DNA of 24,000 nt from Candidatus Woesearchaeota archaeon (GTDB lineage: Archaea > Nanobdellota > Nanobdellia > Woesearchaeales > GW2011-AR9), in the NCBI GenBank assembly GCA_018696595.1, contig JABHQW010000002.1:74128-98127 (forward strand). The letters run 5' to 3'. The position numbers and the translations under genes were made by a program. Positions 1 to 12,933 of the stretch are shown piece by piece (position 1 is the first letter of the stretch; each line of letters opens with the position of its first letter). The notes under the pieces are model-generated. The model saw only the letters and a program-made list of their open reading frames with translations. It searched no databases and was not told the origin of the DNA.

Positions 1-447
1 GTTGGAACTTTAACTAGAAAACTTTCTCAGAAAGTTTTACCTAAAGGAAGAGTTTATGCTTTTGATTTTATTGAGCATAATGTTAGGGTTGCTTTATCTC
101 ATATGAAGAGACACGGACATGTTAACTTTTACCACCATAAACATTTAGATCATTTTAAAACAACTATCAAATTGCCGAAGATGGATGCTTTAGTTTCTAC
201 TGGTTCTTTGTCTTATATGCAAAAGCCACAAAATGTTTTGAACCATTTAGGTAAGCATGTCAAGAAAGGTGGCCGAGTTGTATTCTTAGATTACGATCAG
301 TTCTTTTTCTTTATTCCTAATGTGCCCTGGATTAGTGATGAGAAAAAACTTAAAAAGATGTTTAAGATTGCTAGTTTTGAAGTTGAAGTTATTAAGAAAC
401 GCGGATTGTTATGGAGACATATCTTTATTCATGGTAAGAAAGTTTAA
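1..447 (+). CDS. SAM-dependent methyltransferase-like domain; 3' part of a gene that starts upstream of the window (probably a third APC-permease/methyltransferase paralog)
   Basis: Frame 1 is open from nt 1 (VGTLTRKLSQKVLPKGRVYAFDF...) and is in frame with tracked ORF 103..447. It aligns along its whole length with the C-terminal 150 aa of 3929..6004: GTLTRKL, SLSYMQKPQNVL vs MLSYMQNPLKVL, GGRVVFLDYDQFFFFIPNV vs GADVVFLDYDKFFYFIPNV, KRGLLW, terminal GKKV vs GKRV. Confidence 0.8.
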   Translation, partial: VGTLTRKLSQKVLPKGRVYAFDFIEHNVRVALSHMKRHGHVNFYHHKHLDHFKTTIKLPKMDALVSTGSLSYMQKPQNVLNHLGKHVKKGGRVVFLDYDQFFFFIPNVPWISDEKKLKKMFKIASFEVEVIKKRGLLWRHIFIHGKKV

Positions 448-490: not shown

Positions 491-2824
491 GTGGTGAGAA
501 ACAAATTAGACAAAATAATACAACTATTAATCCCTCCCTCATTAGTTCTCCTTCTTGTTGTTACTATCATTGAACTTTTTTATGGTGTTGGTAAATCTAT
601 GTCAATATTTATTGATATTTTTGATGTCTATGTGATTATTATTTTTGCTATTGATTTGTATTACCGATGGTTTGAAACTCCACGCTTTTGGCCTTATATT
701 AAAAAACACATTCTTGATATTATTGCTACTATCCCTTTCAACTTAATTTTTTTAGGAATTGAAGCACTCGCTTTAATAAGAGCGTTAAGGGGTGTTCGTA
801 TTATTGCTAGAATTGTTAAGTTTGCACGATTTGCACGTTATGGTCGTTTATTAAGATTATTAAGATTTGGTGCAAGAGCACCGAGATTTATTAGGGTAAG
901 AAAGCAAGTAAAAAAAGGTAAAATTCGTAAAGTTCAACCGCACGAAAAAGAGTTGAAGAAAACATTGAGTTTTAAAGTAATCCTCCTAATCACAATTAAC
1001 TCCATTATGGGTACTGGTATTTGGTTCCTTACTTCTGCAGGAGCTAAACATGCTGGTCCCGCTTCTTTAGTTTCTTGGGGTGTATTGTCTTTAATTTCTG
1101 TTTATATTGCGATGTGTTTTGGAGAATTAGTTTCTATGTTTCCAAAAGCAGGTGGCGTTTATGAGTTTGCTAAACAAGCTTACGGTAGATTTTGGAGTTT
1201 CGTTATTGGTTGGACCACATCTATTGCTGGAAGTGTAACTATTGCTATGCTTCTTTTAGGTGCGTTACAATATCTTATTCCTCTTAAATATTCTTTTACC
1301 TATATCCCTATTGCAATTTTTTTAATTATTGCTTTCAGTTATGTAGCATTTAGGGGGATGCAAACTTCAACCGTTGTTTTGGTGACCTTTGCAATCATTA
1401 CTTTAACTGCGGTTGTTTCAATTATCATTCCTGGATTTATTAATTTTAAACCGGGCAATCTTGATCCTTTCTTTGTTTTCCCAGCAATGAATGTCTTGTT
1501 AGCAATATTCTTTATTGCGGAAACTTTCTTTGGTTGGGAAAGTGCTATTTTTCTTTCTGCTGAAACAAAAAATCCTTCTAAAATAATGCCTAAGGCGTTA
1601 ATTTACGGAACTCTTATTATTGCGGTTTTGTCTTTCTTTTTAGCTCTTACAGCTATGGGTACTATTCCCTGGGCAGAATTTTCAGAATCTGTAGCACCAC
1701 TAAAAGATTTAGGAAGCGTCCATTTTGGAAATATTGGGGGGATAATCTTTGCAATATTGATTTTTATTTCTGTAATTGGTGCTACTGCAGGTTGGATTGT
1801 AACTGCACCAAGATTATTAATGTCTATTGCTGAAGATAAATTATTTTTCACTCAATTTGCAAAAATTCATCCCAAACATAAAAGCCCTTACGTTTCAATA
1901 ATTTTTCAAGTTTTAGTTGTTTCAACTTTAGTTATTGTTGGGGCTGGTTCGTATGAAACTTTATTGCATATGCTAATTCCTTTAATTTTGGTTGTCTATT
2001 CTGCTGTCTTGTTAAGTCTCGTTATTTTACGTTTTAAAAGACCAGAATTAAAACGACCTTACAAAGTTATTTTTGGAAAAGTTGGCCCTCTTATCACGAT
2101 GCTGTTTATGGTTTTTCTATTAATAATGTTTATTAAAGAAACTCATAGTGCTTTTGACATCTTGAGGATTTCTGCTGGTTTAGTTGCTTTTGGTATCCCT
2201 GCTTATTTCGCAATTGAATTATTTTATGATAAGAAATATGTTACTCTTAGAAGAAATTTGATGGCTAAGTTATCACATCATTATAATAAATTTCCTTTAA
2301 CTAAAATGACATTTAATAAAATAATTTCTTTAGTTGGACCATTTAATAAGAAATCTTCTCTTATGGTTTATAATTCTCCAATGGGGGCTTTTACTCAAAA
2401 AATTGTTAAATCTAAAATTCCTTTCCGTAAAATAATTATTGCCAATCAGTCAAAAGAAGAAATTAAAGTTTTCAAAGAAAAAATTTCTTCTGAAAATAGA
2501 AAACATATTGGTGTGCATTTGTTGAGAAAATTAAGTGTCCCTGTAAATGTGGGGAAAGTAAATGCTTTTGTTTCATTTAATAGTTTAGGACATGTTAAAG
2601 ACGTAGCTGGGTTTGTTCACAATGTAAAGAAAGTTCTTAATAAAAAAGGCAAGTTCTGTTTTTATGTTAAAAACAATTTTCTGAATATGACTCCTAATGC
2701 TTTATTAGTTGAAGATAAGAAAAAGATGCTGGCTTTGTTTAAGAAAGAAAAATTAGTGGTAACTTATAACAAAAAAAGAAGATTGTTTAAGACAGAAATA
2801 TTTATTTGTGGTAAAAAAGTTTAA
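491..2824 (+). CDS. Three-domain membrane protein: N-terminal voltage-sensor-like (S1-S4, no pore) domain + APC-superfamily amino-acid/polyamine permease + C-terminal degenerate methyltransferase-like domain
   Basis: 777-codon ORF with a GTG start 6 nt after GAGGT (480-484). The S4-like helix RALRGVRIIARIVKFARFARYGRLLRLLRF has a basic residue at about every third position, and the S3-like segment is KHILDIIATIPFNLIFL. APC motifs are GGVYEFAKQAYG, SAETKNPSKIMPKAL and KIHPKHKSPY. The C-terminal ~160 aa are homologous to the MTase domains at 1..447 and 5534..6001, but the SAM motifs are altered. Confidence 0.85.
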   Translation: MVRNKLDKIIQLLIPPSLVLLLVVTIIELFYGVGKSMSIFIDIFDVYVIIIFAIDLYYRWFETPRFWPYIKKHILDIIATIPFNLIFLGIEALALIRALRGVRIIARIVKFARFARYGRLLRLLRFGARAPRFIRVRKQVKKGKIRKVQPHEKELKKTLSFKVILLITINSIMGTGIWFLTSAGAKHAGPASLVSWGVLSLISVYIAMCFGELVSMFPKAGGVYEFAKQAYGRFWSFVIGWTTSIAGSVTIAMLLLGALQYLIPLKYSFTYIPIAIFLIIAFSYVAFRGMQTSTVVLVTFAIITLTAVVSIIIPGFINFKPGNLDPFFVFPAMNVLLAIFFIAETFFGWESAIFLSAETKNPSKIMPKALIYGTLIIAVLSFFLALTAMGTIPWAEFSESVAPLKDLGSVHFGNIGGIIFAILIFISVIGATAGWIVTAPRLLMSIAEDKLFFTQFAKIHPKHKSPYVSIIFQVLVVSTLVIVGAGSYETLLHMLIPLILVVYSAVLLSLVILRFKRPELKRPYKVIFGKVGPLITMLFMVFLLIMFIKETHSAFDILRISAGLVAFGIPAYFAIELFYDKKYVTLRRNLMAKLSHHYNKFPLTKMTFNKIISLVGPFNKKSSLMVYNSPMGAFTQKIVKSKIPFRKIIIANQSKEEIKVFKEKISSENRKHIGVHLLRKLSVPVNVGKVNAFVSFNSLGHVKDVAGFVHNVKKVLNKKGKFCFYVKNNFLNMTPNALLVEDKKKMLALFKKEKLVVTYNKKRRLFKTEIFICGKKV

Positions 2825-2897: not shown

Positions 2898-3248
2898 ATG
2901 GTAAAATTAACTTATATTGAAAAAAAAGGATTTACTCAGAACAACCGTTATGACGCTGGAGTTCAAGCTATTAAGGCTACTGGTGTATTGGAAGCTTTTT
3001 ATAATTTATTGCCTAGTCATGATCAAAGAGGATTTAATATTTCTTCTGGTATCGTTGATACTCTCCCTTCTTACTTTGCGGTTCCTATCAAACGAAAATT
3101 AGAAAAAAGTTTTAACCCTAATATACATCCGCAGGATCCAGTAATTGCGGTTGCTGATTACAGATTAAATGAAAGAATTAATCTCAATCCAGAAGAAAAC
3201 CAAACTCTTGATAAATTAATGGAAGGAATAAGTATGGTGCCATTGTAA
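2898..3248 (+). CDS. Hypothetical protein (116 aa), embedded in the permease cluster
   Basis: ORF with GGAGG 9 nt upstream and an upstream TATA box. I recognise no motif. Confidence 0.55.
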   Translation: MVKLTYIEKKGFTQNNRYDAGVQAIKATGVLEAFYNLLPSHDQRGFNISSGIVDTLPSYFAVPIKRKLEKSFNPNIHPQDPVIAVADYRLNERINLNPEENQTLDKLMEGISMVPL

Positions 3249-3256
3249 TCTTTCAT

Positions 3257-3835
3257 CTACTTTTTATTTTTGTTTTTCTTCAAATTTCTTTTCTCTAGAA
3301 CTTTTGTATGTTTCTTCTGATACTCTGGTTTGTGTCTATGAACATGATGTGTGACTTTTGTAAACAATCTTGATTTGGTAACAATTCTTAATGATCGAGC
3401 AGCTAATCTAATATACTTAGCAATTTTCTGACTTCTACTTAAGGCAGAGATGCCTTTTCTTGCTTCTAATGACTCATGTAATATTGCTTGACTAATGGTG
3501 TATTTTCCAGCAGTTGCAGCGACTCGCCAAACTCGACTTACAATAGTAAATACAATCACTAGGGGGACAACTGCGACTATATCTAACCAGTAACTTTTGA
3601 AAAAGAATTTCCAGGTTTTAGCTTTGATTGCCAAGAAGATCAAATCAATGACAAAGATGACGATGATAAAGTAATCTAATGCCACAATCGGTGTATGGTA
3701 AAGTTCAACAAAATGATGAACTGATTCGTTAAAGTACCCGATGACTTCTAAAACGATAATTATCAGCAAACCCACAATCGCTGCTGGAATTAACTTGGCA
3801 TTCCAATGTTCAACCTTTTCCCAAAAATTATTCAT
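3257..3835 (-). CDS. Free-standing voltage-sensor-like 4-TM protein (ion-transport S1-S4 module without pore), 192 aa
   Basis: I place the start at the internal ATG (3835, MNNFWEKVEHW...), because the longer tracked ORF would overlap the divergent gene and swallow the promoter. A TATA box on the minus strand sits about 26 nt upstream, giving a leaderless layout. The S3-like segment is SYWLDIVAVVPLVIVF, followed by basic S4-like stretches SRVWRVAATAGK and KYIRLAARSLRIVTKSRLFTK. No GYG/pore region is present. Confidence 0.7.
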   Translation of the reverse strand: MNNFWEKVEHWNAKLIPAAIVGLLIIIVLEVIGYFNESVHHFVELYHTPIVALDYFIIVIFVIDLIFLAIKAKTWKFFFKSYWLDIVAVVPLVIVFTIVSRVWRVAATAGKYTISQAILHESLEARKGISALSRSQKIAKYIRLAARSLRIVTKSRLFTKVTHHVHRHKPEYQKKHTKVLEKRNLKKNKNKK

Positions 3836-3857
3836 AGAAGAAAGTAATTTTTTTAGG

Positions 3858-3865
3858 TATATAAA
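3858..3865 (-). promoter_or_regulatory. TATA box (minus strand TTTATATA) for the 3835 VSD-like gene
   Basis: The minus strand reads aaaaTTTATATAc, centred about 26 nt upstream of ATG 3835. This matches the leaderless spacing seen at other genes in the window. Confidence 0.5.
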
Positions 3866-3882
3866 TTTTGTCCTGTGATAAC

Positions 3883-3891
3883 TTTTATAAA
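3883..3891 (+). promoter_or_regulatory. TATA box (cTTTTATAAAt) for the 3929 permease-methyltransferase gene
   Basis: It lies back-to-back with the minus-strand box in the 93-bp divergent intergenic region. The predicted start site near 3912-3915 leaves a short leader containing AGAGG (3918-3922), 6 nt before ATG 3929. Confidence 0.5.
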
Positions 3892-3928
3892 TGATAGAAC
3901 AATAGTTAACTATGAAAAGAGGCATGAG

Positions 3929-6004
3929 ATGAAACTTAAACAGTTCTGGCAGTATTTAGTTACGGATAGTTCTAAGAAGAAGAAAGTTACAACTCTAACT
4001 TCTAATAAATCTATTTCTACTAAAACTGTAACTGTAAAAAGGCATCAATCTACCGCAAAAAGACTTCTCTCATCACCGGTTGTACTATTTATTTTAATTA
4101 ACTCTATCTTAGGGAGCTCATTATTTTACCTCCCCAGCCTAGGAGTTGTTTCTTCTGGGGCGGCATCACTTATTGCTTGGATTCTATTATTTGCTCTTTC
4201 AACATTTATGATGCTTTACGTTTCTGAATTAATTACTTTACATCCTACCTCAGGTGGAACTTACGAGTTCTGTAAACGAGCTTACGGAAGACAAATCTCT
4301 TTTTTTGCTGGCTGGATTATTTGGATTGCTGGAAATTTCGGAATGGCTCTTAATGTAGTGGCGGCTTCTGAATACTTTATCCCAGATACTTATTCTTACT
4401 ACTTCATTTTACGACTAGTTTTTGCAGCAATCTGGATTCTTGTTCTTAACTTTATGGCTTTTAGAGGAATAGATGCGGGAGCAACAATGTTAGTTGTTTT
4501 CGGAATTTTAACTGTGGTTGTAGTGATTGCAATGATCTTACCTTCTTTCATTGACATTCCTACTTTGTTTCAAGGAAGTTTAACCAGCCCATTTCAATTA
4601 GAAATGATGCAACCTTTCTTCCGTCATACTGGATTAGGAATATTTAGTTTCTTACTTCTCTCGGTTTTCTTAATCGCGGAAGCATTCTTTGGTTTTGAAA
4701 CAGTAAGTTATATGGCTAACGAAGTTAAAGATAAAAAGAATTTACCAAAAATAATGATTTCTGCAATGGTCATTTGTGGTGTTATCATGACGATTTATCT
4801 GTTAAGTTCGTTGGGGACAGTTTCTTATCATGATTATGTTAGTGATGCTCGGCCTTGGGCAGTACAGGCATTAAACAATATGGGCAGTTTAGGACAGAAC
4901 TTTGTTGTTTTTGGTATGTACCTAGTAATTATTGGTGCGGCAGCAGCGTGGCCAATTGCTAGTTCAAGATTGATTAGGGCGATGTCTAGCGATAAATTGT
5001 TTTTGAAACATTTCTCAAAGTTACATCCAAAACACAAATCTCCTTATCGTGCAGTTTATTTTCAAACAATCATAATTTTCTTATTTGCTTGGTTTATTTT
5101 TCGTGGATATATTGTTAAATGGGGTGATCCATATCGGACCATTTACTTAATCTACTTATTACTAAGTTTAATTGTACTATCACTTGTCCTTTTTGCAGTT
5201 CCTATCTTGAGGAAGAAAGAAGCACATTTGAAAAGAACATTTAAGGCGCCATTACCTTGGCTTGGTCCAATATTCTTTGTTGGTCTTTTTGTTTTCATGA
5301 TTATTAATTGGATCAGAATTGAAGGTGGTGTAGCAACGTCTGTAATTTTAATGGCAGGGTCATTTGTTGTTTTAGGAATTCCATTTTATTTCTTAGTGGA
5401 AATGTTTTACAATCCTAAGGCTATCATCTCAGTTAATGAAAGGTTATCTTATTTTGTAGTTATTGGAGAAAAATTATTTTTTCCTTTTACTATTAGAAAC
5501 AGATTGATTAAAGACCTAAAAACTTTGCGAGGGAAGTCTGTTTTAGAGTATGGTTGTTCTTTCGGAACACTAACTCGGAAGTTGGCAAAGAAAGTTACTT
5601 CTACTGGAAAAATTTACGCGACAGATTTATCTTTACACAAAGTTAAGATTGCTGATCAAAGAACAAAACGAATCAAGCATGTTTTTGTTCATCATCATCC
5701 TCATTTGAGTGATTTCAAATTGAAATTGCCTCAGAAGGTTGATAACGTGCTCTCTGTGGGGATGTTATCTTACATGCAGAATCCTTTGAAAGTATTGTCA
5801 AGTTTAGCGAAGCGAGTAAAAAGGGGTGCTGACGTAGTATTCTTGGATTATGATAAATTCTTTTACTTTATTCCTAACGTGAAGTGGATTGAAGAAGATA
5901 AAAAGCTAATTGCTTTATTCAAACGAGCGGGTTACAAAGTCAAAGTAGAAAGAAAACGTGGTTTATTATGGACTTATGTTATTATTAGTGGAAAAAGAGT
6001 TTAA
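3929..6004 (+). CDS. APC-superfamily amino-acid/polyamine permease fused to a C-terminal class-I SAM-dependent methyltransferase domain
   Basis: I place the start at ATG 3929 (MKLKQFWQYL), which has an SD; the tracked 3875 start overlaps the divergent gene. APC motifs are SGGTYEFCKRAYG, FFGFETVSYMANEVKDKKNLPKIM and KLHPKHKSPY. The MTase domain (5534-6001) shows motif I VLEYGCSFGTLT, an acidic beta-2 end IYATDLS, and GADVVFLDYD. Confidence 0.85.
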   Translation: MKLKQFWQYLVTDSSKKKKVTTLTSNKSISTKTVTVKRHQSTAKRLLSSPVVLFILINSILGSSLFYLPSLGVVSSGAASLIAWILLFALSTFMMLYVSELITLHPTSGGTYEFCKRAYGRQISFFAGWIIWIAGNFGMALNVVAASEYFIPDTYSYYFILRLVFAAIWILVLNFMAFRGIDAGATMLVVFGILTVVVVIAMILPSFIDIPTLFQGSLTSPFQLEMMQPFFRHTGLGIFSFLLLSVFLIAEAFFGFETVSYMANEVKDKKNLPKIMISAMVICGVIMTIYLLSSLGTVSYHDYVSDARPWAVQALNNMGSLGQNFVVFGMYLVIIGAAAAWPIASSRLIRAMSSDKLFLKHFSKLHPKHKSPYRAVYFQTIIIFLFAWFIFRGYIVKWGDPYRTIYLIYLLLSLIVLSLVLFAVPILRKKEAHLKRTFKAPLPWLGPIFFVGLFVFMIINWIRIEGGVATSVILMAGSFVVLGIPFYFLVEMFYNPKAIISVNERLSYFVVIGEKLFFPFTIRNRLIKDLKTLRGKSVLEYGCSFGTLTRKLAKKVTSTGKIYATDLSLHKVKIADQRTKRIKHVFVHHHPHLSDFKLKLPQKVDNVLSVGMLSYMQNPLKVLSSLAKRVKRGADVVFLDYDKFFYFIPNVKWIEEDKKLIALFKRAGYKVKVERKRGLLWTYVIISGKRV

Positions 6005-6009
6005 GAAAT

Positions 6010-7074
6010 TTATTTTCTTTTCTTTTTCTTTACTACTTTTTTTTTAATAACTTTCTTGGCAGTTTTCTTTTTGAGAGTTTTCTTCTTTACTGGTTTCTTT
6101 TTAGCAACTTTTTTTACTGTCTTTTTCTTTGTTACTTTCTTTTTAGCTACCTTTTTCTTGACAGGTTTTGTTACAACTTTCTTTTTAGAAGATTCTTTCT
6201 TACTAAAACTTACACTTTTCTTAGCAGCTAAATTTAATTTCTCTAAATCTTCAACAATATCAGAAGCAATGAAACAGTAACCTTTTTTTCTCTTCAATAA
6301 TTGGTCGCCAACCCAGCCATTAACATAACTTGCCGCAACTGCACTTTTAAACAAGTCTCTTGTCTTAGATAAAAATCCCACTGCTAGACCCGCTAAAACA
6401 TCTCCTGTGCCAGCTTTAGTCATTCCTTGATTGCCAGTTCTATTGTAAGCAACTTTATTTCTTGAAATAATTATATCTGTGGCTCCTTTCAGAAGTAGAA
6501 CATTATTGTTTTGTAAAAAGTAACGTAAGTTTCCTTGCAGAATATCTGCTTTTTCTTTAGCATTAGCTGATTTTAGTTTTGGTAACAGAAACTCTTTGCC
6601 ACTGTTAGCTAACATCATTTCTAATTCTGCTTCGTGTGGAGTAATGATAGAATTGTTGAAATCTTTAAATGACATTGATTTTAATGCATCAGCATCAACA
6701 ACTTTTAATCGTGGTGATTTTCTGATAAAATATTGGCTGAACTTGTCTGCTTTTCTGGTAATACCATTGCCTAAACAAATTGCATCAAATAATTCTGCAT
6801 ACTTAACCATTTCTTTTGCGTTTTTAATATTAAAATTACTGCCTTTGATTTTGTGAGTTATTAAATCTGGAGAGTAAGAGTTAATTATCCAAGCAACCTT
6901 TTCTGGGGCTGCAATCGTTACTGAATCACAACCAGCTCTTAGTGCTGCTAATCCTGCAAGGGCTGGAGCACCAACATAATCTTCAGAACCGCCAATAATT
7001 AAGGCATAACCATTTTCTCCTTTAGAAGAATTTTTCTTTCTGTCCATTAACTTTTTCACTTGATTAAGATTCAT
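6010..7074 (-). CDS. nnrD: ADP/ATP-dependent NAD(P)H-hydrate dehydratase-like (YjeF C-terminal / carbohydrate-kinase fold) with a ~70-aa lysine-rich C-terminal tail
   Basis: The N-terminus KGENGYALIIGGSEDYVGAPALAGLAALRAGCD and the motif AGTGDVLAGL are characteristic of the YjeF_C family. GAGGT lies 6 nt upstream of ATG 7074. The tail is KKESSKKKVVTKPVKKKVAKKKVTKKK...KKKKRK. Confidence 0.7.
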   Translation of the reverse strand: MNLNQVKKLMDRKKNSSKGENGYALIIGGSEDYVGAPALAGLAALRAGCDSVTIAAPEKVAWIINSYSPDLITHKIKGSNFNIKNAKEMVKYAELFDAICLGNGITRKADKFSQYFIRKSPRLKVVDADALKSMSFKDFNNSIITPHEAELEMMLANSGKEFLLPKLKSANAKEKADILQGNLRYFLQNNNVLLLKGATDIIISRNKVAYNRTGNQGMTKAGTGDVLAGLAVGFLSKTRDLFKSAVAASYVNGWVGDQLLKRKKGYCFIASDIVEDLEKLNLAAKKSVSFSKKESSKKKVVTKPVKKKVAKKKVTKKKTVKKVAKKKPVKKKTLKKKTAKKVIKKKVVKKKKRK

Positions 7075-7094
7075 TTGCTTACCTCTTTTTTAAA
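7071..7094 (-). repeat. Direct repeat copy 1: SD/start region of the 7074 gene (minus strand TTTAAAAAAGAGGTAAGCAAATGA)
   Basis: Nearly identical to 7128-7150; it contains the real SD and ATG. Confidence 0.8.
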
Positions 7095-7113
7095 CTACGA
7101 TTTAAAAAAAGGT

Positions 7114-7134
7114 CAAAAGGAATTTGTTCCTTTG
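7114..7134 (-). promoter_or_regulatory. Small hairpin between the two leader repeats
   Basis: AAAGGAA (7116-7122) pairs with TTCCTTT (7127-7133) around a 4-nt loop. The 3' arm overlaps repeat copy 2. Confidence 0.4.
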
Positions 7135-7150
7135 CTTACCTCTTTTTAAA
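7128..7150 (-). repeat. Direct repeat copy 2: duplicated SD/leader with the start codon replaced (minus strand TTTAAAAAGAGGTAAGCAAAGGA)
   Basis: It differs from copy 1 only by one T/A in the homopolymer run and ATG->AGG. It lies 57 nt upstream (minus-strand sense) of copy 1. Confidence 0.8.
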
Positions 7151-7291
7151 TACCTTTGATTTTTAATTATGTTATTTATAAAGTAGGCTAGTTTTTGAGG
7201 TTTATTAATCTTTGTAATTATTAAAGGGTAGATAATCTTCTTTTTTATTGTATTTAGGGTTATTATTTGTATTTGTTTGAAGAACGATAAC

Positions 7292-7299
7292 AATATAAA
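7292..7299 (+). promoter_or_regulatory. TATA-like box (AATATAAA) for leaderless gene 7322
   Basis: Centred about 26 nt upstream of ATG 7322, with no SD in between. Confidence 0.4.
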
Positions 7300-7321
7300 C
7301 TTCTTTTAGATTTCTAATAGA

Positions 7322-7825
7322 ATGAAACATACTTTTGTATTTATTGATAAAATTGTGGATTTGCTTAGTGGTGGTCCGCGTCAGACTATAGAAACTCCAG
7401 AAAGGAAAGAAGAAGCTAGAAAAATTTGCACCGAACTTCTGAAGTATATTGGGATTCTTGATACGCTCATTAAGAACCATAAAGAAGAAAAATATTTGAA
7501 AAGATTACACGATGCCCACATTTCTAAGATTAGCGATTGGGCAGATCAAGTAGCTAAATTGTTTGAAAGATTTGATTCTTTCTTAAGGATCTTAGAAGCT
7601 GACATTAAAAAATTACAAGCAATTATAGAGGGTGATAGAGATGAAGAATGGTCAACACGGTTTGGTTCTACTGGTTTTGGTTTATATATGTCTGGATTGC
7701 ATGATAAAGAAAATGAAATGAAAAGGTTCAGAGAGATTGCAGTTTTTGAAATGCATGAACTTAAAGGAACGATTTCAGCCGAACATCTGGCGGAATTGGA
7801 ACAAGTTTTAGATTTATTAGAATGA
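7322..7825 (+). CDS. Hypothetical protein (167 aa), predicted helical/coiled
   Basis: This ORF has more ordinary composition than the overlapping minus-strand ORF 7546..7890, and it has a leaderless-type promoter. No motif recognised. Confidence 0.5.
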   Translation: MKHTFVFIDKIVDLLSGGPRQTIETPERKEEARKICTELLKYIGILDTLIKNHKEEKYLKRLHDAHISKISDWADQVAKLFERFDSFLRILEADIKKLQAIIEGDRDEEWSTRFGSTGFGLYMSGLHDKENEMKRFREIAVFEMHELKGTISAEHLAELEQVLDLLE

Positions 7826-7850
7826 TTTATTTGACTCTTAAAGAAAAACC

Positions 7851-7859
7851 TTTTAAATA
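7851..7859 (+). promoter_or_regulatory. TATA box (aaaaccTTTTAAATA) for tRNA-Ile
   Basis: Centred about 28 nt upstream of the tRNA 5' end at 7883. Confidence 0.55.
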
Positions 7860-7882
7860 AACTAACATATTCTTCTGAGTGT

Positions 7883-8063
7883 GGCCCCATAGCTTACCCT
7901 GGTGGAGCGCCAGTCTTATATGGCAGTGTTCTACACAATCGCAAGACAGCTGGAGGTTCCGGGTTCAAAACAGTTATTTCGCCAACTGGGAGCGAGAGGC
8001 GGCGTAATCTCGCGTTGCTCGCTTAACCCCCTGCGAAAAACTATGAAAGTCCCGGTGGGGCCA
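7883..8063 (+). tRNA. tRNA-Ile (anticodon UAU) with two introns: 27 nt at 37/38 (7921-7947) and 80 nt at 59/60 in the T-loop (7970-8049)
   Basis: Manual fold. Acceptor GGCCCCA (7883-7889) pairs with TGGGGCC (8056-8062), discriminator A. D-stem GCTT/GAGC. Anticodon stem CCAGT (7910-7914) pairs with GCTGG (7949-7953), and the loop is C-U-UAU-A. T-stem CCGGG (7959-7963) pairs with CCCGG (8051-8055). The mature length is 74 nt, with no encoded CCA. Confidence 0.8.
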
Positions 8064-8065
8064 TA

Positions 8066-8080
8066 TTTTTTATTTCTTTT
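8066..8080 (+). terminator. Oligo-T tract after tRNA-Ile
   Basis: TTTTTTATTTCTTTT begins 3 nt after the discriminator. Archaeal RNAP terminates at T-runs. Confidence 0.4.
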
Positions 8081-8088
8081 ACCACAAT

Positions 8089-8098
8089 CTTAATAAAT
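8089..8098 (+). promoter_or_regulatory. TATA-like box (CTTAATAAAT) for tRNA-Gly
   Basis: Centred about 30 nt upstream of 8124. Confidence 0.45.
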
Positions 8099-8123
8099 CA
8101 GTTAAGTTTTTGCAGAACTTAAT

Positions 8124-8216
8124 GCGGGAGTAGTATAGTGGTTAGTATACGGCGTTGCCAATAGCTTTTCGCTAAGTAAAGACGCTGTGACCTGGGTTCA
8201 AGTCCCAGCTCTCGCA
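8124..8216 (+). tRNA. tRNA-Gly (anticodon GCC) with one canonical 21-nt intron at 37/38 (8161-8181)
   Basis: Acceptor GCGGGAG pairs with CTCTCGC, discriminator A. Anticodon stem CGGCG (8150-8154) pairs with CGCTG (8183-8187), and the loop is UU-GCC-A. The BHB-like helix pairs TTGC (8155-8158) with GTAA (8176-8179), and the intron hairpin pairs TAGC with GCTA. T-arm CTGGG-TTCAAGT-CCCAG. Confidence 0.8.
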
Positions 8217-8251
8217 CTTCATTTTCTAATAAATAAAAAAATAAAAAGAAA

Positions 8252-8650
8252 TTATCTTTGGGCGTAAGCAAATGTTGCTTTCAAGGCCACAATTATTGTT
8301 GCTGGCACAAACAATGTTAAGATTCCTGTCAACATATTAGTTATTGACGGAGCAACAGCATCAAAAATTCCCACTTGAATTCCTAAGAACGAGATTAATA
8401 CTAATACTGTTCCACTAGTTAAGAATCCAGAAATCTCTTCAACTGCAATGTTTAGTAATCCTACTATAATCCCTAATAGAAATACTGTCCATAAAATTTC
8501 TTTCTGGTAAGCACCAGTAAAACCCAATCCTAATACTATAGCAAGAAACAGCCCAATTAAGAATGACCAACTGCCAACTAAATTTCTACGGCAATAACTT
8601 CCTTCACATTTGACCTGTTTTGCAACTTTTTTTTTCTTTCTTTTAACCAT
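8252..8650 (-). CDS. Small integral membrane protein (about 132 aa, 3-4 TM), hypothetical
   Basis: The tracked ORF starts at GTG 8659. ATG 8650 (MVKRKKKK...) lies 6 nt after GAGGTG (minus strand, 8662-8657), so I prefer it. A basic N-terminus is followed by hydrophobic segments. Confidence 0.6.
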   Translation of the reverse strand: MVKRKKKKVAKQVKCEGSYCRRNLVGSWSFLIGLFLAIVLGLGFTGAYQKEILWTVFLLGIIVGLLNIAVEEISGFLTSGTVLVLISFLGIQVGIFDAVAPSITNMLTGILTLFVPATIIVALKATFAYAQR

Positions 8651-8696
8651 AAATTTCACCTCTTTTTCTCTAGAATTATTTTATGGTATAAAAAGT

Positions 8697-8704
8697 TTTA
8701 TAAA
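8697..8704. promoter_or_regulatory. Palindromic TATA box TTTATAAA between the divergent membrane-protein gene and tRNA-Tyr
   Basis: aaaagTTTTATAAAt is centred about 29 nt upstream of the tRNA-Tyr 5' end (8730). The box is its own reverse complement and is also suitably placed (about 50 nt) upstream of ATG 8650 on the other strand. Confidence 0.55.
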
Positions 8705-8729
8705 TTAGGTGCGTTTCTGCTAAAAGTAA

Positions 8730-8874
8730 CCCTTCATAGTTTAGTGGCTAGAACGTCCGGCTGTAGAAATCGTTTGATTTTGCCATAATGGCTAGAAATG
8801 AAAAACGATCAGCTGTAGTCACCGGAAGATCCCCGGTTCAAATTGTTTTAAACATGAAAGTCCGGGTGAGGGGA
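8730..8874 (+). tRNA. tRNA-Tyr (anticodon GUA) with two introns: 54 nt at 37/38 (8767-8820) and 18 nt at 59/60 (8843-8860)
   Basis: Acceptor CCCTTCA pairs with TGAGGGG, giving the C1:G72 pair typical of archaeal/eukaryal tRNA-Tyr. D-stem GTTT/GAAC. Anticodon stem TCCGG (8756-8760) pairs with CCGGA (8822-8826), and the loop is C-U-GUA-G. T-stem CCCGG (8832-8836) pairs with CCGGG (8862-8866). The T-loop intron forms a textbook hBHBh': TTCA / AAT bulge / TGTT-tta-AACA / TGAA / AGT bulge. Confidence 0.85.
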
Positions 8875-8878
8875 CTCA

Positions 8879-8910
8879 TTTGGGAAGAATTGCGTTTTAT
8901 TCTTCCCAAA
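8879..8910 (+). terminator. Perfect 12-bp hairpin just downstream of tRNA-Tyr
   Basis: TTTGGGAAGAAT (8879-8890), loop tgcgtttt, ATTCTTCCCAAA (8899-8910), followed by a T-rich stretch. Its function as a terminator or processing signal is inferred. Confidence 0.45.
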
Positions 8911-8986
8911 CTTTTCTCAATGATTTATTGTTATTTTTAACATATATATTGCACAATCTTCTTTTTAACTAGAAATTACCAAAAGC

Positions 8987-8994
8987 TTTATAAA
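8987..8994 (+). promoter_or_regulatory. Consensus TATA box (aaaagcTTTATAAAc), candidate promoter of the tRNA-Asp/tRNA-Lys/rpo transcription unit
   Basis: This is the best match to the window's promoter consensus, but it lies about 90 nt upstream of tRNA-Asp instead of about 28. The predicted start site near 9018-9022 implies a leader of about 65 nt. Confidence 0.5.
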
Positions 8995-9083
8995 CCCCCC
9001 ATTTAACTATCTTTCAAAATGGCTAAAGATCTTTCTATGAGTAACAATCTAAAAATTTTACTTGTAGATAGTGCTATATGAAT

Positions 9084-9231
9084 GCCCTGGTAGTGTAGCC
9101 AGGTTTAGCATGAAGCCCTGTCGGAAACTTTTACGAAAAGAAAAATTCGTGAGGTTTTTAGAAAGGCTTCGACCCGGGTTCAAATGGGTTGTAGATGTTA
9201 TTTACAATCACTGAATGTCCCGGCCAGGGCG
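9084..9231 (+). tRNA. tRNA-Asp (anticodon GUC) with two introns: 40 nt at 37/38 (9124-9163) and 33 nt at 59/60 (9185-9217)
   Basis: Acceptor GCCCTGG pairs with CCAGGGC, discriminator G, as is typical of archaeal tRNA-Asp. Anticodon stem AAGCC (9113-9117) pairs with GGCTT (9165-9169), and the loop is C-U-GUC-G. T-stem CCGGG (9174-9178) pairs with CCCGG (9219-9223). The T-loop intron has TTCA/AAT...TGAA/TGT and an internal helix GTTGTA/TACAATC. Confidence 0.8.
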
Positions 9232-9266
9232 TTTCCTTTACCTTAGGTTAGGGAATTAAACGAAAT

Positions 9267-9340
9267 GGGCCGGTAGCTTAGCTTGGAAGAGCGCCTGACT
9301 TTTAATCAGGCGGTCGAGGGTTCAAATCCCTTCCGGCCCG
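9267..9340 (+). tRNA. tRNA-Lys (anticodon UUU), intron-less
   Basis: Acceptor GGGCCGG pairs with CCGGCCC, discriminator G. D-arm GCTT-AGCTTGGAA-GAGC. Anticodon arm CCTGA-CTTTTAA-TCAGG. T-arm GAGGG-TTCAAAT-CCCTT. Length 74 nt, no CCA. Confidence 0.9.
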
Positions 9341-9371
9341 CTCATATTCAACAAATGGAGAAAAATCAAAA

Positions 9372-9625: not shown

Positions 9626-11101
9626 ATGGACCGATCCATCTTAATCAAAAAATATTTCGAAGAAAAACGATTTGTGGACAGTAGTATTCAGTCTTTTAAT
9701 AACTTTATAGATAATGGTTTGCAAGAAGTTGTTGAAGAGAATAAAGAAGCAGAGCCTGCAATTATCCCACATAATATTGAAAAATTTAAAATCAGGTTCG
9801 GAAGAATTACTGTTGGTAAACCTGAAATTACTGAAGCCGATGGAAGTAAGAGGCCAATTTATCCTGCTGAAGCAAGATTAAGAAAAATTTCTTATTATGC
9901 TCCTATCTATTTGGAAGTTAGTACTTATATTAATGATGTTCAAAGAGAAAGTTTTGTTGCAGAAATTGGAAAAATGCCAATCATGCTTAGAAGTAAATAT
10001 TGTCATCTTGACGGGTTAAGCCGAGAAGAACTAATTAAACATGGTGACGACCCAACTGATCCTGGTGGATACTTTATTATTAACGGAACTGAAAGAGTAA
10101 TTGTTAATGTTGAAGATTTGGCAGCTAACAATTTTATTGTTGAAGGTAATCCCATTAAAGGATATAATGGGAGATTCTTTGCAGCAAAAGGATCTTACAA
10201 AATTCCTCATTCTTTTGAAAGGAAGAAAGATGGGATTTATTATATGACATTTACTCGGGTTAAGAATATGCCCATTATAGTTGTATTAAAAGCATTGGGG
10301 CTAACTAAAGACGAAGATATCATGCGAGCAATCTCTGCTAATGAAACTTATGAAGAAGTAATTCTTAACTTGTTTGAATTTGTTGATATCAAAACTCAAG
10401 AAGATGCAGTGGATTACATTTCTAAAAGAATTGGAATCGCTCAAGCTAAAGAAATTAGAATTGAAAGAACTAAAGAAATCTTAGACAAGTTCTTGTTACC
10501 TAATATTGGTATGGATATTGGCTTGAAATCAATAAAAGCAAAAAACATTTGTAAGATGTTAAAGAAATTCATTGATGTTAGAAAAGAAACAAGACCTTCT
10601 GATGATAAGGATCATTACATGAATAAAAGACTGAGACTTAGTGGAGACTTAATGATTGATTTGTTTAGAGTTAATTTTAAAATTCTGGTTGGAGATATTC
10701 TTTACAACTTTCAAAGAATTATCAAACGGGGAAAATTACCTTCAATCCGAGTTATTATTAGAGATAAGTTGTTAACTTCTAGACTTTATTCTTCAATGGC
10801 TACCGGAGAATGGGTTGGTGGGAGACAAGGAGTATCTCAAAGAATGGATCGTTCAAATTTTTTGGCAATGGTATCACATTTACAAAAGGTTGTTAGTCCG
10901 TTATCTTCAAGTCAAGAGAATTTTGACGCAAGAGCATTACATTGTACGCACATTGGTAGGTTGTGTCCAATTGAAACTCCTGAAGGTACAAACATTGGGC
11001 TAAGAAAAAACATGGCAATGTTATGTTCAATCTCACAAGACGTTGGGGAAACTAGCGTTCTTGAGAAAGTTAAAGAATTAGGTTTAAAACCTATCGAATA
11101 A
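9626..11101 (+). CDS. rpoB2: DNA-directed RNA polymerase subunit B'' (N-terminal half of split Rpo2)
   Basis: 491 aa with GGAGG upstream. Motifs include GYFIINGTERVIV, DDKDHYMNKRLRLSGDL and CPIETPEGTNIGL. Confidence 0.95.
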   Translation: MDRSILIKKYFEEKRFVDSSIQSFNNFIDNGLQEVVEENKEAEPAIIPHNIEKFKIRFGRITVGKPEITEADGSKRPIYPAEARLRKISYYAPIYLEVSTYINDVQRESFVAEIGKMPIMLRSKYCHLDGLSREELIKHGDDPTDPGGYFIINGTERVIVNVEDLAANNFIVEGNPIKGYNGRFFAAKGSYKIPHSFERKKDGIYYMTFTRVKNMPIIVVLKALGLTKDEDIMRAISANETYEEVILNLFEFVDIKTQEDAVDYISKRIGIAQAKEIRIERTKEILDKFLLPNIGMDIGLKSIKAKNICKMLKKFIDVRKETRPSDDKDHYMNKRLRLSGDLMIDLFRVNFKILVGDILYNFQRIIKRGKLPSIRVIIRDKLLTSRLYSSMATGEWVGGRQGVSQRMDRSNFLAMVSHLQKVVSPLSSSQENFDARALHCTHIGRLCPIETPEGTNIGLRKNMAMLCSISQDVGETSVLEKVKELGLKPIE

Positions 11102-11110
11102 GGAAATAAA

Positions 11111-12913: not shown

Positions 12914-12933
12914 ACTTATGTTGAGGAAAAAAA

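What the first reader, a model, noticed from the sequence alone, without database searches (positions are those of the whole stretch)
491..2824. Pore-less voltage-sensor-like domain covalently fused to an APC secondary transporter and a methyltransferase-like domain
Seen in sequence: one uninterrupted 777-codon frame. Residues 1-135 contain four hydrophobic segments arranged like S1-S4 of the voltage-gated ion-channel superfamily. The S2-like segment is IFDVYVIIIFAIDLYYRWF and the S3-like segment is KHILDIIATIPFNLIFL. The S4-like helix carries Arg/Lys at nearly every third position (RALRGVRIIARIVKFARFARYGRLLRLLRF, nt ~770-868). There is no S5-P-S6 pore module and no T-x-G-Y/F-G filter anywhere. 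Instead a basic linker leads directly into an APC permease core (GGVYEFAKQAYG, SAETKNPSKIMPKAL, KIHPKHKSPY), followed by a ~160-aa cytoplasmic domain homologous to the neighbouring methyltransferase domains. Established knowledge: pore-less VSDs are known coupled to a phosphatase (VSP) or acting as a proton channel (Hv1). I know of no characterised secondary transporter with an attached VSD. Inference: uptake gated or tuned by membrane potential. The topology is self-consistent, since a 4-TM VSD ends in the cytoplasm where the APC N-terminus begins.
Basis: partly seen in the sequence, partly recalled or inferred. Interest (0 to 1): 0.8.

Follow-up and report, generated by a model that had tools for sequence, protein, structure and literature searches.

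The report
Voltage sensor fused to archaeal amino-acid transporter
A tiny marine DPANN archaeon encodes one protein that joins a pore-less, ion-channel-type voltage sensor to an amino-acid transporter, a design characterised so far only in an animal sperm Na+/H+ exchanger, so nutrient transport in these archaea may be switched by membrane voltage.

Summary
Window 491-2824 (+) is one 777-codon gene. Residues 1-135 are a real homologue of S1-S4 voltage-sensor domains (VSDs): a family profile hits only VSDs in the PDB, with KvAP best at E 4e-6. The S2 and S3 countercharges, the S2 Phe and a basic residue at every third S4 position are conserved. There is no pore module in the protein, and no K+-channel pore domain in the 97%-complete genome. 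An APC (SLC7-like) permease core follows at residues 159-600, then a class-I methyltransferase fold at 615-777 whose SAM-binding motifs are lost in this copy.

The fusion is not an artefact. More than 120 protein clusters from Woesearchaeota/Nanoarchaeota share the architecture. Contigs from four marine runs bridge the junction without indels. VSD-bearing members form one well-supported clade.

The new features here are the transporter superfamily, the domain order and the domain of life. The fusion also belongs to a DPANN-restricted group of pore-less VSDs (standalone, HPP-fused, APC-fused).

Voltage gating of transport is my best inference (about 0.55) and is untested. I found no prior description in the literature I could search.

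The parts
491..2824 (+). Whole gene: VSD - APC permease - methyltransferase-fold domain, 777 aa (P0001), GTG start, stop included
   Evidence: Homologues begin at the same place (M-x-x-N-K-L-D).
515..583 (+). S1 of the voltage-sensor domain (aa 9-31). E28 is acidic in 27 of 27 fused homologues.
   Evidence: Hydropathy. AF2 helix 5-31 with pLDDT about 90. Aligned to KvAP S1..
593..676 (+). S2 (aa 35-62), carrying D45 (outer acidic), F52 (hydrophobic plug position), D55 (inner acidic) and R59
   Evidence: All four residues are invariant in 27 fused homologues. They are kept across about 300 carrier genera. They align to KvAP D62, L69, D72 and R76.
698..760 (+). S3 (aa about 70-90), with D76 and the invariant I77-x-A79-T80-I81-P82 motif
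   Evidence: D76 aligns to KvAP E93 and P82 to P99.
764..895 (+). S4 and its long cytoplasmic continuation (aa 92-135), with 13 R/K at every third or fourth position and ending in the invariant A-P131-R132-F motif
   Evidence: Positions 100, 103, 116, 119, 122, 125, 129, 132 and 135 are basic in 26-27 of 27 homologues. R97, R100 and R103 align to KvAP R120, R123 and R126. HCN channels are the second-best PDB hits over S3-S4.
896..964 (+). Basic linker (aa 136-158) with the P150-H151-E152 motif just before permease TM1. H151 and E152 are invariant and P150 is nearly invariant (90% or more) in the 30 fused proteins of alignment A1. The motif is absent from the VSD-less paralogues.
   Evidence: (H151 and E152 invariant, P150 nearly invariant).
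965..2290 (+). APC-superfamily (SLC7-like, LeuT-fold) permease core, aa 159-600, 12 predicted TMs
   Evidence: PF13520 E 1.6e-44. TIGR00909 E 6e-52. Best solved relatives are BasC 6f2g (1.4e-29), GkApcT and LAT1.
2333..2821 (+). C-terminal class-I methyltransferase-fold domain (aa 615-777) with degenerate SAM-binding motifs (VYNSPMG in place of the paralogues' GCS-x-G, or the DCGVGG of other fused members; ANQS in place of A-x-D)
   Evidence: Pfam Methyltransf_11, 24.3 bits. Alternating beta/alpha pattern with pLDDT 72-89. Motif comparison.
1..447 (+). 3' end of the upstream tandem paralogue P0124 (626 aa, APC-MT, no VSD, intact motif I). The full gene is L001:6695-8575.
   Evidence: It is 45% identical to P0001 residues 154-777.
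3257..3925 (-). Standalone pore-less VSD paralogue P0002 (222 aa as listed; the likely true start is M31)
   Evidence: PF00520 E 1.4e-4. VSD-family HMM E 8e-13 and 4.7e-51 against the A3 HMM.
3875..6004 (+). Third APC-MT paralogue P0003 (709 aa, no VSD, intact motif I), divergent from P0002

Best explanation
The gene encodes a three-module membrane protein. An N-terminal four-helix voltage-sensor domain is homologous to S1-S4 of voltage-gated channels and has an intact charge-transfer centre. Its S4 is unusually long and highly basic. S4 runs straight into a basic linker and then into TM1 of an SLC7-like APC amino-acid permease. The protein ends in a methyltransferase-fold domain that has lost its SAM-binding signature in this copy. 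Shown here: the homology, the architecture, its conservation and single origin, and the absence of any pore. Inferred: membrane potential moves S4, and that movement passes through the rigid S4 extension and the conserved PHE-containing linker to the permease's TM1 and cytoplasmic gate. Amino-acid transport would then be switched by voltage. The most plausible logic is that transport is allowed when the cell is energised and blocked when the potential collapses, which would stop amino acids leaking out of an auxotrophic episymbiont. This is the same working principle as the sperm Na+/H+ exchanger SLC9C1, reached independently. The degenerate methyltransferase fold most likely serves as a cytoplasmic regulatory or assembly domain rather than as an enzyme.
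For: VSD homology. A profile of 27 N-termini hits only VSDs in the PDB: 35 of 35 hits at E<=1, with KvAP at 4.3e-6 and HCN1 at 2.8e-4. The single sequence gives KvAP at 9e-4. In the wider family, 89 of 146 members match PF00520, best 2.6e-10. An AF2 model of residues 1-160 has pLDDT 82, with S1-S3 at 90 or above. All of the top 50 Foldseek hits are VSDs, KvAP with prob 1.00. The independent VIA-align search is headed by VSDs and includes SLC9C1 (Z 8.2, rmsd 3.8 over 123 residues).

Functional residues. D45, F52, D55 and R59 are invariant and D76 is acidic in 26 of 27. Across carrier genera, F52 is kept in 249 of 267, position 55 is D/E in 282 of 288, position 76 is D/E in 276 of 294 and R132 is kept in 165 of 180. 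Nine S4 positions are basic in 26-27 of 27 sequences.

Reality of the fusion. 121 clusters of about 775 aa share the architecture, down to 52% identity. Contigs of four runs bridge the junction with no gaps. 33 of 40 strain variants fall at third codon positions.

Origin and context. VSD-bearing proteins sit on one side of a branch with support 100 in a tree built without the VSD. The genome is 97% complete and has no PF07885 pore. An APC permease lies within 5 kb of the VSD in 36 of 300 carriers, against 0 at random places. By band this is 0/102, 6/81, 27/105 and 0/9. The same VSD clade is also fused to the HPP membrane module.

Predicted docking. VSD against permease core gave weak support: ipSAE 0.46 against a best control of 0.00. 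The mark was reached by 58 of 80 solved complexes and 2 of 110 mismatched pairs, but a score of 0.60 or under was seen in only 7 of those 80 solved complexes and in both mismatches that passed. Run agreement was at least 59% and partner pLDDT at least 56.

Precedent. SLC9C1 has a charge-transfer centre and an S4 about 60 A long that couples to the transporter without an S4-S5 linker (PMC10620092).
Against: No functional data of any kind exist. This sequence scores below Pfam's cut-off for PF00520 (19.2 against 25 bits). Structural Z-scores of 8-9.6 are in the range that unrelated four-helix bundles also reach. The S4 segment has low model confidence, with pLDDT 55-61 at residues 100-120. The full-length model is poor (pLDDT 62), so no VSD-permease interface is established, and the complex prediction gives only weak support. 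Most standalone VSD genes of the clade are not next to a permease. Gene neighbourhoods of the fused gene are not conserved. The polarity of gating is a guess.
Confidence: 0.55

Rival explanations
1. The S1-S4 module is a VSD by descent but no longer a voltage switch for transport. It would serve as a structural, oligomerisation, lipid-interaction or membrane-targeting domain, as the S1-S4 domains of many TRP-type channels do (that comparison is from general knowledge).
For: No interface or coupling is demonstrated. The VSD-less paralogues P0124 and P0003 in the same genome presumably transport without it. The S4 region is variable in length within the family.
Against: A purely structural domain would not be expected to keep the whole charge-transfer centre (D45, F52, D55, D76) and nine or more periodic S4 charges across more than 120 clusters and about 300 genera.
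Confidence: 0.2
2. The VSD itself conducts ions. This could be an Hv1-like proton path or an omega-type leak. It would supply or dissipate the coupling ion or charge beside the permease, rather than gating it allosterically.
For: The VSD is pore-less and the genome has no cation-channel pore. Hv1 shows that a lone VSD can conduct. The permease lacks the TM5 lysine (T304 aligns with BasC K154 and GkApcT K191). That lysine is implicated in proton coupling in relatives, a point taken from memory of the ApcT, GkApcT and BasC papers.
Against: The Hv1 signature RxWRxxR (PMC4621752) is absent, since S4 reads R-A-L-R-G-V-R. S1 has no mid-membrane Asp; its only acidic residue is E28 near the outer end. 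The conserved F52 plug and the complete arginine ladder argue for a sealed sensor.
Confidence: 0.1
3. The voltage sensor's target is the C-terminal methyltransferase-fold domain, following the logic of voltage-sensing phosphatases. Alternatively the whole protein is a non-transporting sensor (a transceptor), with the permease acting as ligand sensor or scaffold.
For: Some members of the fused family keep intact SAM motifs (DYDCGVGG, A-V-D). All APC proteins of this lineage carry the MT domain. VSDs coupled to enzymes exist (VSP).
Against: The VSD is separated from the MT domain by 12 TMs and is joined directly to permease TM1. In P0001 and many other members the SAM motifs are lost while the VSD stays fully conserved. 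The permease substrate-site motifs (GTG in TM1, the F-G-W-E region in TM6) are invariant.
Confidence: 0.08
4. The finding is an artefact: a mis-assembly or frameshift joins two genes, or the N-terminus is just extra permease helices.
For: One related contig (L002) shows the gene in three frames.
Against: L002 comes from a polished long-read assembly. It carries the same domain order, merely broken by two frame changes. 121 independent clusters are full length. Contigs from four runs cross the junction with no gaps. Every sequence and fold hit of residues 1-150 is a VSD and none is a permease.
Confidence: 0.02

Closest known systems
SLC9C1 (sperm-specific Na+/H+ exchanger, sNHE). In 2023 it was described as the only known transporter regulated by a VSD (PMC10620092, PMC6052114, PMC10620091).
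   Same: A secondary transporter is covalently joined to a pore-less S4-type VSD. The charge-transfer centre is conserved. A very long S4 continues into the cytoplasm, and there is no S4-S5 linker or pore. The VSD model aligns to the SpSLC9C1 VSD (8pcz residues 672-841, Z 8.2, rmsd 3.8 over 123 residues).
   Different: The transporter is LeuT-fold APC/SLC7-like rather than CPA/NHE elevator-type. The VSD is N-terminal and feeds directly into TM1, not C-terminal. There is no CNBD; a methyltransferase fold takes that place. The host is archaeal (Nanobdellota), not metazoan. The fusion event is independent. Function is untested.
KvAP and other voltage-gated cation channels (Pfam PF00520 Ion_trans)
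   Same: These are the best sequence and fold matches of residues 1-135. The equivalent residues are D45/D62, F52/L69, D55/D72, R59/R76, D76/E93, P82/P99 and the S4 arginines.
   Different: There is no S5-P-S6 pore and no selectivity filter. S4 is followed by a permease. The S3-S4 connection is very short, with no paddle-like loop.
Pore-less VSD proteins: Hv1 proton channel, voltage-sensing phosphatase (VSP), TMEM266
   Same: A VSD that works without a channel pore.
   Different: The Hv1 RxWRxxR signature is absent. No phosphatase domain is present. These are eukaryotic families, whereas this one is DPANN-archaeal.
Bacterial and archaeal SLC7-like APC transporters: BasC (6f2g), GkApcT (6f34), and TIGR00909
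   Same: The permease core is homologous over 12 TMs (E 1e-29 to 1e-23).
   Different: These lack both the N-terminal VSD and the C-terminal methyltransferase domain. The TM5 lysine (BasC K154, GkApcT K191) is an invariant Thr here.
VSD-less APC-methyltransferase fusions of Nanoarchaeota/Woesearchaeota (P0124 family, 626 aa)
   Same: The permease and MT architecture are the same. They are tandem neighbours in this genome and 45% identical.
   Different: No VSD. The SAM motifs are intact. They form the sister group of the VSD-bearing clade.

Membership tests
Voltage-sensor domain (S1-S4 of the VGIC superfamily; N-terminal half of Pfam PF00520) | Significant sequence similarity to established VSDs | tested here: met
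   Family profile against the PDB: KvAP 4.3e-6, and all 35 hits are VSDs. 89 of 146 clade members hit PF00520, best 2.6e-10. Caveat: P0001 alone scores 19.2 bits, below the cut-off of 25.
Voltage-sensor domain (S1-S4 of the VGIC superfamily; N-terminal half of Pfam PF00520) | Four-helix transmembrane bundle, S1-S4 | tested here: met
   Hydropathy. AF2 model with pLDDT 82. The Foldseek top 50 are all VSDs. VIA-align Z up to 9.6, although unrelated helical bundles reach Z of about 8 too.
Voltage-sensor domain (S1-S4 of the VGIC superfamily; N-terminal half of Pfam PF00520) | Charge-transfer centre: a hydrophobic or aromatic S2 residue, an acidic residue three positions later, and an acidic S3 residue, plus an outer S2 acidic residue | tested here: met
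   F52-x-x-D55, D45 and D76. The first three are invariant and D76 is acidic in 26 of 27. They are kept in 85-98% of carrier genera.
Voltage-sensor domain (S1-S4 of the VGIC superfamily; N-terminal half of Pfam PF00520) | S4 with Arg/Lys at every third position | tested here: met
   13 R/K between residues 97 and 135. Nine positions are basic in 26-27 of 27 homologues.
Voltage-sensor domain (S1-S4 of the VGIC superfamily; N-terminal half of Pfam PF00520) | Gating-charge displacement in response to membrane potential | not testable with these tools
   Needs electrophysiology or voltage-clamp fluorometry.
Voltage-gated cation channel (6TM) | S5-P-S6 pore module with a selectivity filter | tested here: not met
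   No TxG[YFL]G or G[YF]G motif. The PF00520 match stops at profile position 110 of 241. Residues 159 onward are APC permease. The genome has no PF07885 pore.
APC superfamily amino-acid permease (PF13520 / PF00324; SLC7-like) | Full-length match to the permease profile and to solved members | tested here: met
   PF13520 152.9 bits against a cut-off of 27. TIGR00909 E 6e-52, below its equivalog-type cut-off. BasC 1.4e-29.
APC superfamily amino-acid permease (PF13520 / PF00324; SLC7-like) | Substrate identity and coupling mode | not testable with these tools
   No NCBIfam equivalog cut-off is reached.
Class I SAM-dependent methyltransferase | Rossmann-like alpha/beta fold matching the Methyltransf_11/12/23 profiles | tested here: met
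   24.3 bits against a cut-off of 21.2 on residues 600-777. The model shows an alternating strand/helix pattern with pLDDT 72-89.
Class I SAM-dependent methyltransferase | Motif I glycine-rich SAM loop (E/D-x-G-x-G-x-G type) and the acidic residue ending strand 2 | tested here: not met
   P0001 has V-Y-N-S-P-M-G and A-N-Q-S. The paralogues have E-F/Y-G-C-S-x-G with F/T-D, and other fused members have D-Y-D-C-G-V-G-G with A-V-D.
Hv1 voltage-gated proton channel | S4 signature RxWRxxR | tested here: not met
   S4 reads R97-A-L-R100-G-V-R103 with no Trp. The signature is as stated in PMC4621752.
Voltage-sensing phosphatase | PTEN-like phosphatase domain after S4 | tested here: not met
   Pfam finds only permease and methyltransferase families after S4.
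SLC9C1-type voltage-gated exchanger | NHE (CPA) transport module and a CNBD | tested here: not met
   No Na_H_Exchanger or cNMP-binding match. The protein works like SLC9C1 at most by analogy and is not a member.

The most novel reading that the evidence does not exclude
This would be the first prokaryotic voltage-gated secondary transporter. It would be an amino-acid permease whose cytoplasmic gate (TM1) is driven directly by a long S4 helix, evolved independently of SLC9C1. It would also be the visible tip of a DPANN-specific toolkit of pore-less voltage sensors (standalone, HPP-fused, APC-fused). These ultra-small, channel-pore-free archaea would use that toolkit to couple transport to their own membrane potential, or to one that depends on their host.
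Probability: 0.5. Interest if true: 0.9.

Novelty: new variant of a known kind. Interest (0 to 1): 0.8.

Why it matters
As of 2023 SLC9C1 was described as the only transporter known to be regulated by a VSD (PMC10620092). A second, independent solution would change that. It uses a different transporter fold (LeuT/APC, the fold of the SLC6 and SLC7 drug targets). It attaches S4 to TM1 in a different way, and it comes from archaea. That would show that voltage gating of carriers is a recurrent design rather than a sperm oddity.

It would also offer a small, prokaryotic and probably tractable protein for structural work on electromechanical coupling to an alternating-access transporter.

The finding bears on VSD evolution as well. 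It shows a large lineage-restricted clade of VSDs in genomes without any channel pore.

Finally it bears on DPANN physiology. These organisms cannot make their own amino acids, so a voltage check on uptake or leak would be central to their symbiotic lifestyle.

Public databases currently label these proteins only as 'APC family permease' or 'basic amino acid/polyamine antiporter', so the sensor is invisible to annotation.

Tried and rejected
1. The full-length AF2 model built from a 30-sequence alignment had mean pLDDT 62, with residues 82-196 below 50. It cannot show how the VSD packs on the permease.

2. Shorter homologues as possible split forms: nearly all are contig-end fragments. The apparent split VSD-plus-permease pair in L002 is the fused gene broken by two frame changes in a polished long-read contig.

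3. Conserved gene neighbourhood of the fused gene: none in L003 or L004. The context of P0331 had no DNA available, and L005 holds no VSD.

4. A pore partner encoded elsewhere in the genome: PF07885 gave no match. The only PF00520 'pore-half' hit (G000:C7:50422-50754, 14.8 bits, E 0.006) is a 117-aa two-TM protein without a filter motif, which I judge a chance hydrophobic match. The TxGYG-like strings in the genome lie in non-channel contexts.

5. Expression: no RNA holder is listed among the sequencing runs.

6. Literature: six full-text searches combined VSD terms with transporter, permease, prokaryote, archaea, DPANN, Woesearchaeota, standalone and Foldseek terms. None found a description of a VSD-APC fusion or of DPANN pore-less VSDs. 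The library is incomplete, so this is not proof of novelty.

The S4 N-terminal charges were therefore assessed only within the fused family.

8. NCBIfam gave no useful match for the N- or C-terminal pieces.
Full report
OBSERVATION. Window 491-2824 (+) is one open frame of 777 codons with a GTG start. Homologues start at the same place.

Pfam places AA_permease_2 at residues 159-547 (E 1.6e-44). It gives a weak Methyltransf_11 match at 646-724, which passes the family cut-off when the C-terminal piece is scanned alone (24.3 against 21.2 bits). When residues 1-160 are scanned alone, it gives PF00520 Ion_trans over profile positions 15-110 of 241. That is the S1-S4 half only. The E-value is 7.5e-4 and the score is 19.2 bits, below the cut-off of 25. 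No TxG[YFL]G or G[YF]G motif exists in the protein.

ORGANISM AND LOCUS. The window carries split archaeal RNA polymerase B subunits and A'. GC content is about 33%. It lies in a 1.19-Mb genome of 8 contigs that is 97% complete. Homologues are named Woesearchaeota or Nanoarchaeota. The census places the VSD family in GTDB Nanobdellota. The DNA recurs in marine metagenomes from many studies.

The gene is the middle one of three tandem APC-methyltransferase paralogues. P0124 has 626 aa and its 3' end is window 1-447. P0001 is the gene under study. P0003 is at window 3875-6004. A standalone VSD gene, P0002 (3257-3925, minus strand), sits divergently in front of P0003.

IS THE N-TERMINUS A VOLTAGE SENSOR? 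Five lines of evidence agree.

(a) Sequence. The single sequence finds the KvAP VSD first in the PDB (E 9e-4), and the matches with E below about 0.6 are all VSDs; a few weak non-VSD rows appear only above that. A profile of 27 orthologous N-termini raises KvAP to 4.3e-6 and HCN1 to 2.8e-4, and all 35 hits with E<=1 are VSDs.

(b) Transitivity. A profile search of 1.84 billion representatives found 553 relatives. Of the 146 aligned here, 89 match PF00520 on their own, best 2.6e-10. One HPP-fused member passes Pfam's cut-off.

(c) Signature residues. In the KvAP alignment D45, F52, D55, R59, D76 and P82 fall on KvAP D62, L69, D72, R76, E93 and P99. F52-x-x-D55 together with D76 has the spacing of the charge-transfer centre. 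That centre is described for SLC9C1 as Y743, E746 and D767. D45, F52, D55, R59 and P82 are invariant in the fused family. They are kept in 83-99% of about 300 carrier genera.

(d) S4. Thirteen R/K lie between residues 97 and 135 at spacings of 3 or 4. Nine of those positions are basic in 26-27 of 27 orthologues.

(e) Fold. An AF2 model from the 146-sequence alignment has pLDDT 82, with S1-S3 at 90 or above and residues 100-120 at only 55-61. The top 50 Foldseek hits are all VSDs (KvAP E 3e-3, prob 1.00, TM 0.49/0.52). A Foldseek-independent search is led by Kv4, CatSper, Nav, HCN and SLC9C1 VSDs at Z 8-9.6. Designed four-helix bundles also reach Z of about 8 there, so the fold alone would not be decisive.

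Taken together I put VSD homology at about 0.93. The alternative of extra permease helices is excluded, because nothing in residues 1-150 matches a permease.

IS THE FUSION REAL? Yes.
- 121 protein clusters of about 770-790 aa carry the same N-terminus in front of the APC (+MT) domains, down to 52% identity. They come from many assemblies and sources.
- Contigs of four marine runs cross the VSD-permease junction with no differences and no gaps: X2 covers 400-2463, X3 400-1557, X7 400-1291 and X8 814-1148. Three of these runs may be the source sample; X8 is not flagged as such.
- Strain variants in the permease part fall at third codon positions in 33 of 40 cases.
- In a tree built from the permease and MT parts only, the 30 VSD-bearing proteins form one side of a branch with support 100 against 33 VSD-less ones. 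That fits a single acquisition (FastTree, midpoint rooting for drawing only).

ANATOMY BEYOND THE SENSOR. In the fused family the stretch from S3 to the end of S4 is short and almost purely basic, with a median of 12 basic and 1 acidic residues. In standalone relatives the same stretch is longer, with about 7 acidic residues.

S4 and its continuation cover about 44 residues. That is too long for one membrane span, so the lower half must project into the cytoplasm. This recalls HCN channels and above all SLC9C1, whose S4 runs about 60 A and couples without an S4-S5 linker.

S4 ends in an invariant A-P-R-F motif. A basic linker follows, and a P-H-E motif (H151 and E152 invariant, P150 nearly so) lies just before permease TM1. 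That motif is missing from the VSD-less paralogues.

The permease is SLC7-like; BasC, GkApcT and LAT1 are the nearest solved structures. The TM5 lysine of BasC (K154) and GkApcT (K191) aligns with an invariant Thr304.

The C-terminal domain is a class-I methyltransferase fold. In P0001 and many relatives the glycine-rich motif I and the motif II acidic residue are replaced (V-Y-N-S-P-M-G and A-N-Q-S). The tandem paralogues and one subclade of fused proteins keep them. The replacement N-S-P-x-G is itself conserved, which suggests a changed role rather than decay.

WIDER FAMILY. The same VSD clade consists mostly of 140-230-aa standalone proteins. One is annotated 'ion transporter' and another 'hypothetical'. 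About a dozen 258-313-aa proteins carry the VSD at their C-terminus. Four of the eight of these that were scanned match the HPP membrane domain in their N-terminal part.

The clade is concentrated in Nanobdellota, in about 200 of 788 genera, with a few carriers in other DPANN phyla. Bacteria appear only in the lowest score band.

An APC permease lies within 5 kb in 36 of 300 carriers, against 0 at random places. By band the counts are 0/102, 6/81, 27/105 and 0/9. These figures include the fusions themselves, so linkage of standalone sensors to permeases is partial.

Two local examples exist. P0002 lies beside P0003 in this window. A 332-aa VSD gene overlaps the start of the fused gene by 4 nt in L003.

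The genome has no K+-channel pore domain.

MECHANISM. Shown: an intact-looking sensor is hard-wired to TM1 of a LeuT-fold permease. Inferred: S4 displacement passes through the rigid S4 extension and linker to TM1a and the cytoplasmic gate. General knowledge of LeuT-fold carriers is that TM1a swings during inward opening.

Splitting the protein into a VSD chain and a permease chain gave weak support for docking. The score was 0.46 against a best control of 0.00. The mark was reached by 58 of 80 solved complexes and 2 of 110 mismatched pairs, but scores of 0.60 or under are more often wrong than right unless the pairing was likely beforehand. Run agreement was at least 59% and partner pLDDT at least 56.

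The physiological logic (open when energised, shut on depolarisation to prevent amino-acid loss) and the polarity of gating are guesses.

COMPARISON AND NOVELTY. However, SLC9C1 was called the only such transporter in 2023. This family differs in transporter fold, domain order, accessory domain and domain of life. My full-text searches found no description of it or of DPANN pore-less VSDs. I therefore rate it a new variant of a known kind, of high interest, with function unproven.

Noticed in passing
window 3257-3925 (-): P0002 is a standalone pore-less VSD protein of 222 aa as listed; its likely true start is M31. It is a paralogue of the fused sensor. It has a longer, acidic S3-S4 region and is divergently paired with the VSD-less APC-MT gene P0003. 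It may act in trans on that permease.
   Followed up: partly
window 1-447 (+), 3875-6004 (+); L001:6695-8575: Three tandem APC permease-methyltransferase fusion genes lie in one locus. The VSD-less 626-aa form is itself a conserved family of Nanoarchaeota/Woesearchaeota. Its permease-methyltransferase pairing is unexplained.
   Followed up: partly
proteins P0185, P0216, P0245, P0253 (metagenomic): The same VSD clade also occurs C-terminally fused to the TM_HPP membrane domain (PF04982). This is a second VSD-membrane-module fusion.
   Followed up: partly
L003:6006-7004 and 7001-9358: In another Woesearchaeota contig a 332-aa VSD-family gene overlaps the start of the VSD-APC-MT gene by 4 nt. The arrangement looks like an operon.
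   Followed up: partly
window 1400-1402 (codon of T304): The TM5 lysine of BasC (K154) and GkApcT (K191) is an invariant threonine in the fused family. The paralogue P0124 reads F-I-T-L at what looks like the same place by eye (not formally aligned). This may bear on the ion-coupling mode.
   Followed up: no
window 2360-2383 and 2432-2452: The degenerate methyltransferase motif I reads N-S-P-x-G in most members that lost the glycine loop. The substitution is conserved rather than random, which hints at a new ligand or role.
   Followed up: no
window 2898-3248 (+): A 116-aa ORF (P0297) lies between the fused gene and the standalone VSD gene. It has no Pfam match.
   Followed up: no
L002:5001-7266: A related fused gene appears in three reading frames in a 'pilon'-polished contig. 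This is probably long-read indel error, though it could be a pseudogene.
   Followed up: partly
L001:5181-6628: A retropepsin-like or Zn-protease-like gene followed by a RimK-type ATP-grasp ligase lies directly upstream of the transporter cluster.
   Followed up: no
window 9267-9341, 9626-15504: A tRNA-Lys(UUU) gene is followed by the split rpoB''/rpoB' genes and rpoA', which marks the window as archaeal.
   Followed up: no
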